DNA of 34,575 nucleotides from Candidatus Nomurabacteria bacterium RIFCSPLOWO2_12_FULL_44_11 (GTDB lineage: Bacteria; Patescibacteriota; Minisyncoccia; Phycocordibacterales; UBA9973): NCBI GenBank assembly GCA_001787125.1, contig MFVU01000015.1:19992-54566 (forward strand), given 5' to 3'. Shown here in pieces: positions 2,254-4,271 of this stretch. Both the position numbers and the translations under genes were made by a program. Under the pieces are notes generated by a model, which saw only the letters and a list, made by a program, of their open reading frames with translations, was not told the origin of the DNA and made no database searches. Numbering within the stretch: position 1 is the stretch's first letter; each line of letters starts with the position of its first letter.

Positions 2254-2577
2254 GGCTTGTTCTGCAAGAATAAGCGTAATGTTGCTGGTGCGCTTGTTAA
2301 TGCGATGACCGCTGCCCATGGCTGCCGGCATCATTCTTTTCATGGTAACGCCCTGATTTACCAGAAGTTCTTTGATCATCAAATTTTCTTTGTCCACGCC
2401 GGCTTGCTTGGCATTGGCTACGGCGGAAAGTAAAAGTTTTTTAAGCGGCAATCCGGCGCGCTTTGCCAAGAAGTCGAGCTCGGCAATCGCCTGTGGCACG
2501 CTTCGGCCCTTGATCACATTGGCGACCAAGCGGACTTTCCTAGGTGACTGTCTGTAATTTTTTAAAAATGCTCGCAT
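2194..2577 (-). CDS. rplV: 50S ribosomal protein L22
   Basis: Start moved to ATG 2577 (MRAFLKNYRQSPRKVRLVA); SAVANA and INKRTSNIT motifs. Confidence 0.97.
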   Translation of the reverse strand: MRAFLKNYRQSPRKVRLVANVIKGRSVPQAIAELDFLAKRAGLPLKKLLLSAVANAKQAGVDKENLMIKELLVNQGVTMKRMMPAAMGSGHRINKRTSNITLILAEQAKPEARKTKSEKITKLKKKV

Positions 2578-2602
2578 GTAAGTTATAAAGTTTGTAAAGT
2601 AA

Positions 2603-2965
2603 TTATTTGGCGGCAGGGGCGGCTTTAATGCCCGCGCCTGTTTGCGCAGTTGCTGCTTGCGCCTGCGCAATTTCCGCTTCCTTTTTCGCTTGCTCGAGCT
2701 CTTTCTGCATGCGTCCGCCGTGCTTGATAAATTTCTTGGTTGGGGAAAATTCCCCCAAGCGATGCCCGACCATGTCTTCCGTCACTAAAACTTCGATGTG
2801 AGTTTTTCCGTTATAGACGCCAAAAGTGAACCCAAGCATATCGGGAGAAATTTGGCAGGCACGGTTCCACGTCTTGACCATGGGGGTCTTCATTGGATCG
2901 CGGCCGGCGATCTTTTTCAAAAGCCGTTCGTCCGTGTATATTCCTTTCTTTATTGAGCGTGTCAT
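2603..2965 (-). CDS. rpsS: 30S ribosomal protein S19 with Ala-rich C-terminal extension
   Basis: Start ATG 2965 MTRSIKKG; VYNGKTH...MVGHRLGEFSPT. Confidence 0.97.
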   Translation of the reverse strand: MTRSIKKGIYTDERLLKKIAGRDPMKTPMVKTWNRACQISPDMLGFTFGVYNGKTHIEVLVTEDMVGHRLGEFSPTKKFIKHGGRMQKELEQAKKEAEIAQAQAATAQTGAGIKAAPAAK

Positions 2966-2997
2966 ATAAAAACGAGCTCGCAATGGAGCTTGAAAAC

Positions 2998-3025
2998 ATA
3001 CTAGCAAATAAGGTTAAAAAGTCAA
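2998..3025 (-). promoter_or_regulatory. Putative sigma70 promoter restarting transcription at rpsS
   Basis: TTGACT-16 nt-TAGTAT with TG extended -10. Confidence 0.55.
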
Positions 3026-3026
3026 A

Positions 3027-3064
3027 CAAAAAGAATGGGGGGAAACGATGGATTGTTTCCCCCC
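3027..3064 (-). terminator. Intrinsic terminator
   Basis: GGGGGGAAAC/GTTTCCCCCC 10-bp stem followed by ATTCTTTTTGTTT on minus strand. Confidence 0.8.
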
Positions 3065-3379
3065 TTTCGTGCACGATGGTGACTAGCACCACTGGAGGAC
3101 TGTTAGGCCTCCTTTTTGTGGGAGCGCTGAGGTGGCTCCGCATGACCCTTGGGGCTATGGGGACCCCATCCCGGCTCTTGGAAAATACTAACTCTGACTA
3201 GCATTTACCATGAGCACCAACGACTTGGTTGAGGAACACTAGGGCGATTCCTCTTTACCCTTGGAGCGGAATTTTCATCACGACTCCCAGCGACTCGGCC
3301 ACTCGGCCGAGAGAACGGAGTGACTTCCACCATGCCCTAGATGGCCACCGTCATAGAGTACCCTCCCTTCTCTTTCCAT
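3027..3379 (-). ncRNA. Candidate structured non-coding RNA of unknown family
   Basis: Own promoter and terminator, GC-rich, about 8 stems, G-U pairs favouring minus strand, loop-loop complementarity CUAGGGC/GCCCUAG. Confidence 0.55.
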
Positions 3380-3384
3380 TTAGG

Positions 3385-3412
3385 AATATAGTCCTTTTAA
3401 AAAATAAATCAA
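3385..3412 (-). promoter_or_regulatory. Putative sigma70 promoter of the rplB-rpsS intergenic unit
   Basis: TTGATT-16 nt-TATATT. Confidence 0.5.
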
Positions 3413-3428
3413 CTAAAAAAGTGAATAA

Positions 3429-4271
3429 CTATTCTTTCTTGCCGGACTTGCGTCGGTGGGAGACAATAAATATATTCGAGTATTTTTTCGGAGTGCGGGT
3501 CTTGCGTCCGCCGGTAACTTTGCCCCACTTGGTCTTCGGGCGCTTGATACCGCGGCCTTGGCGGCCCTCACCCCCTCCGTAGGGATGGTCCACCGGGTTC
3601 ATAGCCGTGCCGCGCACCGTCGGGCGAATGCCTTTCCAGCGGCTACGCCCGGCCTTGCCGAAATTCTGCAAATGATACTCTTCGTTCGAGACAACCCCGA
3701 CGGAGGCCCAGCAATTTTCATTTATTTTGCGGATTTCAGTGGAAGGCATCTTCAAATTTGTGTAGCCCTCGGCATTTGCCACCACTTGGGCAAAAATTCC
3801 CGCGGAGCGGCCAATCTTGGCGCCGCCTTGCGGCTTTATTTCAATATTGTAAACAAAAGTTCCGACCGGAATATTTTTCAGAGGCAAGCGATTGCCCGGG
3901 TTAAGTTCTGCTTTTTCGGAAACAATGAAAGAACTTCCCGGCTTGACTGATTTTGGTAAAACCACATATCTTTTCTCTCCATCCTTGTAGATAGCAAGTC
4001 CGATGAAAGCGGAGCGGTTCGGATCGTATTCGACGGAAGTTATCCTAGCCGGGATATCGCGCTTGTTATAGAGAAAATCCACGTCGCGGTACAGGCGCTT
4101 GTGCCCGCCACCCTTATGCCGCATGGTAATGCGGCCGGCGCTGTTGCGACCCACGCTACGCCGGAAACCGTGAAGAAGCGACTTGGTCGGCTCCGTCTGA
4201 GAAAGAACTCCGCGGTAAGTCACATGGGTCATTTGTCGCCTGGATTTACTTGTAGGTTTGTATGATTTCAT
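3429..4271 (-). CDS. rplB: 50S ribosomal protein L2
   Basis: GRNSAGRITMRHKGGGHKR, EYDPNRSA, RPTVRGTAMNPVDHPYGGGEG. Confidence 0.99.
   Translation of the reverse strand: MKSYKPTSKSRRQMTHVTYRGVLSQTEPTKSLLHGFRRSVGRNSAGRITMRHKGGGHKRLYRDVDFLYNKRDIPARITSVEYDPNRSAFIGLAIYKDGEKRYVVLPKSVKPGSSFIVSEKAELNPGNRLPLKNIPVGTFVYNIEIKPQGGAKIGRSAGIFAQVVANAEGYTNLKMPSTEIRKINENCWASVGVVSNEEYHLQNFGKAGRSRWKGIRPTVRGTAMNPVDHPYGGGEGRQGRGIKRPKTKWGKVTGGRKTRTPKKYSNIFIVSHRRKSGKKE

What the first reader, a model, noticed from the sequence alone, without database searches (positions are those of the whole stretch)
3027..3412. Candidate novel ~350-nt structured RNA with a kissing-loop pseudoknot, as its own transcription unit inside the S10 operon
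Established: rplB and rpsS are normally nearly adjacent. Seen: a 463-bp gap with, on the minus strand, a promoter (TTGATT-16-TATATT, 3412-3385), a GC-rich body, a 10-bp terminator stem with U-tract (3064-3027), then a new promoter for rpsS. Pairings in the body: AGAGAA-G-GGAG/CUCC-G-UUCUCU (3373-3363 with 3320-3310); CUCGGCC-GAGU-GGCCGAG (3311-3294); GAGGAA/UUCCUC (3253-3231); ACCAA-GUCG-UUGGU; AAAUGCUAG/UUAGUAUUU (3206-3183, two G-U pairs that only work on the minus strand) extended by UGG/CCA and GCUC/GAGC; AUGGG/CCCAU; GGAGC/GCUCC; GGAGG/CCUCC; UGGUG/CACCA. Apical CUAGGGC (3340-3334) is perfectly complementary to loop GCCCUAG (3245-3239). I could not find tmRNA, RNase P or tRNA signatures. 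Inference: a functional ncRNA or ribozyme; a 33-aa leaderless peptide (ATG 3379, MEREGRVLYDGG...) is the alternative.
Basis: partly seen in the sequence, partly recalled or inferred. Interest (0 to 1): 0.82.

Follow-up and report, generated by a model that had tools for sequence, protein, structure and literature searches.

The report
Orphan hairpin-rich RNA unit between rplB and rpsS
The long spacer between two ribosomal protein genes of this tiny groundwater bacterium holds a real, unusually well-folding unit with its own start and stop signals and no convincing gene, but it sits in a slot that every relative fills with something different, and nothing shows that it is a conserved RNA machine.

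Summary
The sequence features are real. rplB (3429-4271) and rpsS (2603-2968) lie 460 nt apart on the minus strand. The gap holds a sigma-70-like promoter, a GC-rich body of about 315 nt made of local hairpins, a 10-bp terminator, then a second promoter for rpsS. The body folds better than shuffles (z -3.4; -5.8 with the terminator) and is the best-folding of 63 tiled stretches of the window. It matches no Rfam family. RNase P RNA and tmRNA lie elsewhere in the genome.

No homologue of the body was found by sequence or by covariance model, so there is no covariation evidence. This holds for 211 genomes of the genus (relatives titled Candidatus Nomurabacteria), 400 of the order, 80 metagenome loci, phages and plasmids. 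The 7-nt "kissing" complementarity is no more than chance.

The rplB-rpsS junction is a variable slot in this lineage, 83-1635 nt in 68 species. It holds toxin-antitoxin genes, transposase-like genes, small basic-protein mini-genes (44 of 65 GC-rich inserts) or ORF-less units. Only the cassette promoter and the rpsS promoter/leader are shared.

Best reading: a species-specific, ORF-less cassette transcript of unknown or no function. A ribozyme-like RNA is unsupported but not excluded, because the nearest relative is distant (RplB 94%).

The parts
3429..4271 (-). rplB (ribosomal protein L2), 280 aa; upstream neighbour. No terminator lies between its stop codon and the cassette promoter.
   Evidence: Pfam Ribosomal_L2_N 3.4e-30 and L2_C 1.3e-50; translation; terminator scan
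3385..3412 (-). Cassette promoter-like site, TTGATT-16-TATATT. This AT-rich stretch is the only part of the unit that resembles relatives' spacers.
   Evidence: Promoter scan 9/12. The only blastn matches of gap nt 1-58 are to the start of relatives' gaps: L027 3.7e-4, L072 and L070 0.007; L093 1.8e-7, L134 0.001, L123 0.004.
3065..3379 (-). GC-rich body (GC 0.55) of the predicted transcript. In the centroid fold it is a chain of local hairpins. Long-range pairs appear only in the minimum-energy fold.
   Evidence: Folds and z-scores; GC. No homologue found.
3310..3373 (-). 5' stem AGAGAAGGGAG / CUCCGUUCUCU (one G-G mismatch), enclosing the SD-like GGGAGGG, the mini-ORF and the CUAGGGC 7-mer.
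   Evidence: Coordinates verified; present in the centroid and local folds
3337..3367 (-). SD-like GGGAGGG (3367-3361), ATG 3354, 5-codon ORF MTVAI, TAG 3339-3337. The same GGAGG(G)TAC-N-ATG motif leads ORFs of 31 aa or more, up to 77 aa, in four relatives.
   Evidence: Sequence; motif in 5 of 176 gaps on the gene strand and 0 on the reverse strand
3294..3311 (-). Hairpin CUCGGCC-GAGU-GGCCGAG (7 bp).
3231..3253 (-). Hairpin GAGGAA-loop-UUCCUC. Its loop holds GCCCUAG (3245-3239), complementary to CUAGGGC (3340-3334).
   Evidence: chance test
3174..3229 (-). Hairpin ACCAA-GUCG-UUGGU (3229-3216), then a long hairpin GCUC..AAAUGCUAG-UCAGAG-UUAGUAUUU..GAGC (3215-3174) with two G-U pairs that work only on the minus strand.
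3077..3112 (-). Two small hairpins, GGAGG/CCUCC and UGGUG/CACCA.
3027..3064 (-). Intrinsic terminator: 10-bp stem with 7 G-C pairs, 8-nt loop, T-run.
   Evidence: Terminator scan; sequence
2969..3025 (-). rpsS promoter-like site TTGACT-16-TAGTAT (3025-2998) and leader hairpin AGCUC-loop-GAGCU (2990-2975). This is the stretch conserved across the genus.
   Evidence: blastn shows the last 60-90 nt of the gaps are shared across the genus. Hairpin census.
2603..2968 (-). rpsS (ribosomal protein S19), ATG at 2968.
   Evidence: Pfam Ribosomal_S19 2e-29; translation

Best explanation
The stretch is this species' private cargo in a variable slot that the whole lineage keeps between rplB and rpsS.

Inferred from consensus signals: RNA polymerase starts at the cassette promoter near 3379, and can also read in from rplB because no terminator intervenes. 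It transcribes about 315 nt of GC-rich sequence that folds into a chain of local hairpins. It stops at the strong terminator 3064-3037. rpsS is then restarted from its own conserved promoter (3025-2998).

The product is an ORF-less, hairpin-rich RNA of about 340 nt. It is not RNase P RNA, tmRNA, SRP RNA, a known riboswitch or a known ribozyme.

Its most likely origin is the cassette type seen in relatives: promoter, 5' hairpin, strong SD, small basic protein, terminator. Here only a 5-codon ORF follows the SD.

Shown: the signals, the excess folding, the lack of any family match, the variability of the slot, and the coding nature of many relatives' inserts. Inferred: transcription, the non-coding nature, and the origin.

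Any function would be species-specific and at the RNA level. Possibilities are an sRNA, or simply the terminator-bearing end of the upstream unit.
For: Signals at the stated places.

Folding:
- z -5.79 with the terminator and -3.36 without it; 0 of 100 shuffles as stable in each.
- A coding control gives z +0.07.
- The target is the most negative of 63 tiled stretches.
- The minus strand folds better than the plus strand.

Composition: the body GC is 0.55 against 0.44 for the window. The other spacers over 200 nt in a crude ORF map have GC 0.34-0.39.

Coding: the longest SD-led ORF in the gap is 13 codons. Pfam finds nothing in 5 gap ORFs.

Rfam: nothing at gathering score on the window except one tRNA. 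Only two junk matches (E 1.6 and 3.7) appear at E<=10 on 2900-3550.

RNase P RNA lies at C21 (103 bits) and tmRNA at C15:3191-3593 (107 bits).

The slot:
- 68 complete gaps of 80 species loci measure 83-1635 nt, median 538.5.
- In 29 other families of the order, 14 gaps measure 56-1164 nt, and 14 have rplB more than about 1.5 kb away.

Cargo in relatives: HicA, PemK/MazF plus a Phd-like protein, GIY-YIG, an IS200-like Y1 transposase and Fic/DOC.

Small ORFs in relatives:
- 44 of 65 GC-rich inserts carry an SD-led ORF of 40 aa or more on the gene strand, against 14 of 65 on the reverse strand.
- One 4-member small-protein family shows third-position bias and 12-20 synonymous codon swaps per pair.

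An ORF-less unit bounded by a promoter and a terminator is shared by L167 and L172. Its mismatches show no 3-periodicity (32/29/26).
Against: - No transcript evidence of any kind. No RNA run holds the stretch.
- The promoter is a 9/12 consensus match.
- No homologue of the body exists, so neither RNA-level nor protein-level constraint can be shown.
- Profile searches do not link any frame of the window to relatives' small proteins. The 'decayed mini-gene' origin therefore rests only on the shared SD-ATG motif.
- In a 0.64-Mb genome with about 90% coding (crude estimate), a functionless 460-nt GC-rich spacer would be expected to decay or be deleted. That argues for some function.
- Excess folding is also seen in relatives' protein-coding cassettes (z -1.3 to -7.4 in 9 relatives). 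Folding alone therefore does not mean non-coding.
Confidence: 0.45

Rival explanations
1. A functional, lineage-specific structured RNA with tertiary contacts: a roughly 340-nt ncRNA or ribozyme whose loops CUAGGGC and GCCCUAG kiss.
For: - Excess folding and strand asymmetry.
- GC-rich in an AT-richer genome where other spacers are AT-rich.
- Two G-U pairs work only on the minus strand.
0 of 200 shuffles gave a loop-loop run of 7.
- The nearest relative is distant (RplB 94%, RpsS 86%), so missing homologues are weak evidence against.
- An ORF-less unit exists in the same slot in L167/L172.
Against: - No Rfam family, including all curated ribozymes and riboswitches.
- No sequence homologue in 211 genus genomes or 80 metagenome loci. 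Across 400 genomes of the order there were only 7 short, chance-level hits.
- No structural homologue with model R1 in 200 loci or 150 genomes.
- 7-mer complementarity is at chance level (2 observed against 2.9 expected).
- Predicted folds do not expose both 7-mers.
- Long-range helices are absent from the centroid.
Confidence: 0.15
2. A decayed small-protein mini-gene. The cassette once encoded a small basic protein like those of relatives and is now broken (TAG at codon 6). The transcript is a relic.
For: - The motif GGAGG(G)TAC-N-ATG occurs in 5 of 176 gaps on the gene strand and 0 on the reverse. It leads ORFs of 31 aa or more, up to 77 aa, in four relatives and a 5-codon ORF here.
- The same frame stays open, apart from three stops, for 108 codons.
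- 44 of 65 GC-rich inserts in relatives carry an SD-led ORF.
Against: - No profile or pairwise similarity between any window frame and relatives' small proteins.
- The read-through frame finds only a tandem-repeat artefact among 1.84 billion proteins.
- Three stops in 108 codons is about what a random frame gives (my arithmetic).
- The GC-richness is retained.
Confidence: 0.2
3. A small-peptide gene: the 33-aa leaderless ORF (3379-3278) or the 42-aa ORF (3333-3205) is the product.
For: - The ATG at 3379 lies 6 nt after the -10 box, the right place for a leaderless mRNA.
- Relatives' cassettes do encode small proteins.
Against: - No Pfam match.
- The 42-aa ORF has no relative in the 5.8-billion-protein index and no SD.
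- L018, L019 and L031 keep an ATG at the same spot after their -10 box, but their ORFs there are 10, 20 and 15 codons with different ends.
- The 33-aa ORF could be tested only against Pfam. It was too short.
Confidence: 0.1
4. No separate transcript. The stretch is only the long structured 3' tail and terminator of the rpsJ-rplB transcript, and the promoter-like site is inactive.
For: - There is no terminator between the rplB stop and the body.
- The terminator at 3064-3037 is the first one downstream of rplB.
- The promoter is only a 9/12 match.
Against: - The AT-rich promoter stretch is the one part shared with relatives.
- Many relatives have a terminator right after rplB followed by the same kind of promoter.
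Confidence: 0.1

Closest known systems
Species-specific bacterial sRNA genes (own promoter, Rho-independent terminator, no ORF)
   Same: Architecture: a sigma-70-like promoter, an ORF-poor structured body, a strong intrinsic terminator, and no conservation beyond close kin.
   Different: About 340 nt is long for an sRNA. No target, chaperone or transcript is known. It lies inside the S10 ribosomal protein cluster.
Long GC-rich intergenic structured RNAs (OLE, ROOL, GOLLD, HEARO, raiA and others curated in Rfam)
   Same: The longest spacer of the window and the GC-richest of the long ones, in an AT-richer genome, with excess predicted folding.
   Different: No match to any of the 4227 Rfam models even at E<=10. 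Those classes are defined by many homologues with covariation, and here there is none.
Ribosomal protein operon leaders and attenuators (for example the L4-controlled S10 leader)
   Same: Structured RNA inside the S10 cluster, ending in a terminator.
   Different: The terminator is followed by a separate conserved promoter for rpsS, so it cannot attenuate rpsS. The body is not conserved among relatives. There is no Rfam leader match.
Structured mRNAs of small toxin genes (type I toxin-antitoxin style) and other addiction cargo in variable islets flanked by core genes
   Same: The slot holds HicA, PemK/MazF and Fic/DOC genes in relatives. Relatives' small-gene transcripts are strongly folded, with a 5' hairpin before the SD.
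   Different: The window has no hydrophobic peptide ORF, and no antisense promoter or partner gene was seen. The resemblance concerns the neighbourhood, not a tested membership.

Membership tests
Bacterial RNase P RNA (RF00010/RF00011) | Match to the covariance model; one essential copy per genome | tested here: not met
   No RNase P match on 2900-3550 even at E<=10. The genome's copy is at C21:9573-9945, 103.1 bits.
tmRNA (RF00023) | tRNA-like domain plus tag reading frame; model match | tested here: not met
   ARAGORN finds no tmRNA in the window. The genome's copy is at C15:3191-3593, 107.4 bits.
SRP RNA (RF00169, RF01854) | Domain IV helix; model match; an Ffh partner | tested here: not met
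   No match in the region or anywhere in the genome. No Ffh M domain and no SRP54 GTPase over the cut-off in the genome. The slot's variability also excludes an essential RNA.
Known self-cleaving ribozymes, riboswitches and r-protein leaders (all Rfam 15 families) | Covariance-model match | tested here: not met
   Gathering scan of the window finds only a tRNA. The E<=10 scan of 2900-3550 finds snoR99 (E 3.7) and BSR0626 (E 1.6), both far below gathering score.
Conserved structured ncRNA (any new class) | Homologues with compensatory base-pair changes | tested here: inconclusive
   No homologue was found, so covariation cannot be counted. Contigs of 4 runs show the same strain with 0-3 differences. 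The nearest relative has RplB 94%.
Independent transcription unit | Promoter and intrinsic terminator on the same strand | tested here: met
   Consensus scans only. The promoter stretch resembles relatives'. No transcript data.
Small-protein cassettes of relatives (the APPDAxQ family in L034/L043/L085/L127, the PRPWQ group, the GGAGGTAC-led group) | SD-led ORF of 40 aa or more with profile similarity | tested here: not met
   The longest SD-led ORF is 13 codons. hmmsearch, phmmer and jackhmmer give no hit to any window frame below E 9.9.
Type I toxin-antitoxin locus | Small hydrophobic toxin ORF plus an overlapping antisense RNA | not tested
   By reading only, the 33-aa and 42-aa ORFs are not hydrophobic. 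No antisense promoter was reported inside the body by the scan. No dedicated tool was run.

The most novel reading that the evidence does not exclude
The junction between rplB and rpsS, in the middle of the most conserved gene cluster of bacteria, is a cargo slot throughout this Patescibacteria order. It is bounded by a shared cassette promoter and by the rpsS promoter/leader. It is refilled in each species with toxin-antitoxin genes, small basic-protein mini-genes or ORF-less folded RNAs. In this reading, the window's roughly 340-nt unit is a functional, species-specific structured RNA of that cargo class. It might be an RNA regulator, or an antitoxin-like or decoy RNA, with the 7-nt loop-loop contact being real.
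Probability: 0.15. Interest if true: 0.65.

Novelty: new variant of a known kind. Interest (0 to 1): 0.4.

Why it matters
If the unit is transcribed and functional, it would be a new long structured RNA in a phylum with almost no experimentally known regulatory RNAs.

The better-supported point is the context. A whole order of ultra-small bacteria splits the S10 cluster at rplB|rpsS and uses the break as a variable slot for small genes, addiction modules and folded RNAs. That would give a defined place to look for fast-evolving small proteins and RNAs in uncultured Patescibacteria. It is also a caution for annotators, who treat this cluster as invariant.

As it stands, the single orphan sequence cannot carry the claim of a ribozyme.

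Tried and rejected
**Known RNA families.** RNase P RNA, tmRNA and SRP RNA were rejected. So was any other Rfam family, including in 20 relatives' loci.

**Sequence homologues of the body.**
- Own genome: single copy.
- 40 relatives: 0.
- 211 genomes of the genus: 0.
- 400 genomes of the order: 7 short hits of 21-45 nt at per-genome E 5e-4 to 0.009. About 4 are expected by chance. They are scattered over the query and none lies in a tRNA.
- nhmmer and relaxed blastn against 70 and then 80 more spacers matched only the promoter part.
- Phages: no match. Plasmids: no match.
- IMG/VR exact 24-mer: 0.

**Structural homologues.** Covariance model R1 (3172-3312, 48 pairs, built from the single sequence with its predicted fold) gave 0 hits at E<=5 in 200 loci and 0 of 150 genus genomes. 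The model is weak, so this is not strong evidence.

**Protein readings.**
- Pfam on gap ORFs and on relatives' small ORFs: nothing.
- 42-aa ORF against the protein index: nothing.
- Frame read through with X at its three stops, against 1.84 billion representatives: one hit, E 1.8e-4. It is a tandem-repeat protein matching five times an 18-aa stretch translated from the terminator region, and I treat it as an artefact.
- My impression of a shared 'ENSA-R' motif with L013, L023 and L067 was not borne out by hmmsearch.
- An iterative nhmmer promoter profile found only the window itself.

**Expression and population data.**
- No RNA holder was listed among 20 runs.
- Contigs of 4 DNA runs gave no usable variation in the gap.
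- A joint 3032->3466 in one contig of X9 (side 20) was not followed.

**Papers.** Four searches gave nothing on this locus. I saw only the listings and the starts of abstracts, and read no paper. Supplements were closed and not needed.

**Tallies that include unpublished genomes.** Searches flagged three genomes as unpublished (G075, G121, G122). The genus-wide searches may also have drawn on them. No sequence of theirs was fetched or shown.

Full report
**What is there.** On the minus strand, rplB ends at 3429 and rpsS starts at 2968. Both are confirmed by Pfam and translation. The gap between them is 460 nt.

The consensus scan finds these sites:
- TTGATT-16-TATATT at 3412-3385;
- a terminator at 3064-3037 with a 10-bp stem, 7 G-C pairs and a T-run;
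- TTGACT-16-TAGTAT at 3025-2998;
- a small hairpin at 2990-2975 just before rpsS.

In 2500-4000 the scan found 4 promoter-like sites, against 1.2 +/- 1.2 in shuffles, and 4 terminator-like sites, against 2.5 +/- 1.9.

**Is it more than chance?**
- The stretch 3027-3385(-) folds at -149.4 kcal/mol, z -5.79, with 0 of 100 shuffles as stable. The plus strand gives z -3.70.
- Without the terminator (3070-3380) the minus strand gives z -3.36 (0 of 100) and the plus strand -2.13 (2 of 100).
- A 311-nt piece of rplB gives z +0.07.
- My own runs with fewer shuffles gave -3.3 and -2.9 for nearly the same stretch.
- Of 63 tiled 311-nt stretches of the window on the minus strand (mean z -0.47, sd 0.95), the most negative (-3.8) is the one on the target. 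The next is -2.6.
- The centroid keeps the local hairpins but not the long-range helices of the minimum-energy fold.
- The body has GC 0.55 against 0.44 for the window. In a crude ORF map, the other spacers over 200 nt have GC 0.34-0.39.

The kissing-loop claim does not pass. The body has 2 perfectly complementary 7-mer pairs, against 2.9 on average in 1000 shuffles. Neither a global nor a local fold leaves both 7-mers unpaired in hairpin loops. However, those hairpins were chosen after seeing the match.

**What it is not.**
- Rfam at gathering score finds only a tRNA in the window.
- At E<=10 on 2900-3550 it finds two junk matches.
- ARAGORN finds two tRNAs and no tmRNA.
- The genome's RNase P RNA and tmRNA lie elsewhere.
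- No ORF of the gap matches Pfam.

**Relatives.** Record titles of the nearest genomes read Candidatus Nomurabacteria, Paceibacterota or Patescibacteria. The body has no sequence match anywhere I could look:

| Searched | Result |
|---|---|
| 40 relatives | 0 |
| 211 genomes of the genus | 0 |
| 400 genomes of the order | 7 short chance-level hits |
| 144 spacers from genus genomes and metagenome contigs | only the AT-rich promoter part (gap nt 1-58) matches |
| phages, plasmids, IMG/VR | no match |

A covariance model of the best-supported hairpin cluster found nothing. Contigs from four sequencing runs carry the same strain, with 0-3 differences. No RNA run holds the stretch. No covariation test is therefore possible.

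This is weaker evidence against function than it looks. The nearest relative has RplB 94% and RpsS 86% identity, and at that distance many genuine sRNAs are not conserved.

**The context changes the reading.** In this lineage rplB and rpsS are not adjacent.
- In 80 species loci, 68 complete gaps measure 83-1635 nt, median 538.5.
- In 29 other families of the order, 14 gaps measure 56-1164 nt, 14 have rplB more than about 1.5 kb away, and one contig ends.
- Only two parts are shared: the last 60-90 nt (the rpsS promoter and leader hairpin) and the promoter-like start.

The rest differs from species to species.
- Some gaps hold HicA, PemK/MazF with a Phd-like partner, GIY-YIG, an IS200-like Y1 transposase or Fic/DOC genes.
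- Many hold GC-rich inserts with a common plan, seen by eye. There is often a terminator after rplB, then a promoter, a 5' hairpin, a strong SD, a small basic ORF, a 3' part, a terminator, and the rpsS promoter.
- Of 65 GC-rich inserts of 300-1300 nt, 44 have an SD-led ORF of 40 aa or more on the gene strand, against 14 on the reverse strand. These came from 176 unique spacers. Only exact duplicates were removed, so near-duplicates remain.
- One family of four (73-82 aa) is clearly coding. Changes concentrate at third positions, and 12-20 identical residues per pair use different codons.
- These coding cassettes also fold well (z -1.3 to -7.4 in nine relatives).
- 21 of the 65, the window among them, lack such an ORF.
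- L167 and L172 share an ORF-less unit bounded by a promoter and a terminator. Its mismatches show no codon periodicity, and I saw one compensatory pair by eye.

**The window's unit.**
- After the promoter comes GGGAGGG, 6 nt, then an ATG at 3354. The ORF stops after five codons.
- The motif GGAGG(G)TAC-N-ATG occurs in 5 of 176 gaps on the gene strand and in none on the reverse. In the other four it leads ORFs of 31 aa or more, up to 77 aa.
- This hints that the unit descends from a mini-gene. However, no profile links any frame of the window to relatives' proteins.
- The frame read through with X finds only a repeat artefact among 1.84 billion proteins.
- The 42-aa ORF has no relative in the protein index.
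- The 33-aa leaderless ORF starts at an ATG that L018, L019 and L031 also have after their -10 box. Their ORFs there are 10, 20 and 15 codons long.

The unit is best described as a species-specific, ORF-less, hairpin-rich cassette in a variable slot of the S10 cluster. It is probably transcribed from its own promoter and ended by a strong terminator. It has no demonstrable conservation and belongs to no known family.

I give 0.45 to that reading (function unknown or none), 0.2 to a decayed mini-gene, 0.15 to a truly functional tertiary-structured RNA, 0.1 to a peptide gene, and 0.1 to a mere 3' tail of the rplB transcript. The slot itself, not the orphan sequence, is the more interesting result.

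Noticed in passing
whole genome G000 and relatives (not in the window): No SRP system was detected. There is no small or large SRP RNA in the own genome. 0 of 30 other genus genomes reach the SRP RNA cut-off, and one has a weak 19.7-bit hit. The own genome has no Ffh M domain and no SRP54-type GTPase over the cut-off. The same holds in 40 relatives of 17 genera: only P-loop fragments, with one borderline 22.8-bit match. Controls rang in 13-14 of 14 known genomes. If true, Ffh, FtsY and SRP RNA are missing across this order.
   Followed up: partly
window 2969-3025 and the last ~80 nt of relatives' gaps: The rpsS promoter and a leader hairpin (AAGCUC-loop-GAGCUU) just before the start codon are conserved across the genus. 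125 of 170 spacer ends have a hairpin of 6-7 consecutive pairs in the last 48 nt. A variant, AGGCUC/GAGCCU, keeps the pairing. This could be an r-protein leader. There is no Rfam match.
   Followed up: partly
L034, L043, L085, L127 (rplB-rpsS gaps of relatives): A conserved small protein of 73-82 aa with the motif EAPL..LR..APPDAxQ. It is GC-rich (0.59-0.67), preceded by TTCGGAGG, and under purifying selection by codon pattern. It has no Pfam family. Function unknown.
   Followed up: partly
L014, L025, L026, L036, L037 (relatives' gaps): The same slot carries HicA, PemK/MazF with a Phd/YefM-like protein (28.9 bits, just under the cut-off), an IS200-like Y1 transposase, Fic/DOC and GIY-YIG genes.
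   Followed up: yes
L024 (relative's gap, 528 nt): Two successive short units made almost only of near-perfect GC-rich hairpins, each ending in a terminator, with no ORF. These look like folded RNAs or palindromic elements.
   Followed up: no
L050 (G079:C11, relative): rplB and rpsS appear to lie in one open frame of 404 aa with no gap. This could be a fusion or an assembly or frame artefact.
   Followed up: no
window 3032-3466: One contig of run X9 joins 3032 to 3466 and skips the cassette (depth 5.2, short side 20 nt). It is probably a relative with another cargo rather than a deletion variant.
   Followed up: no
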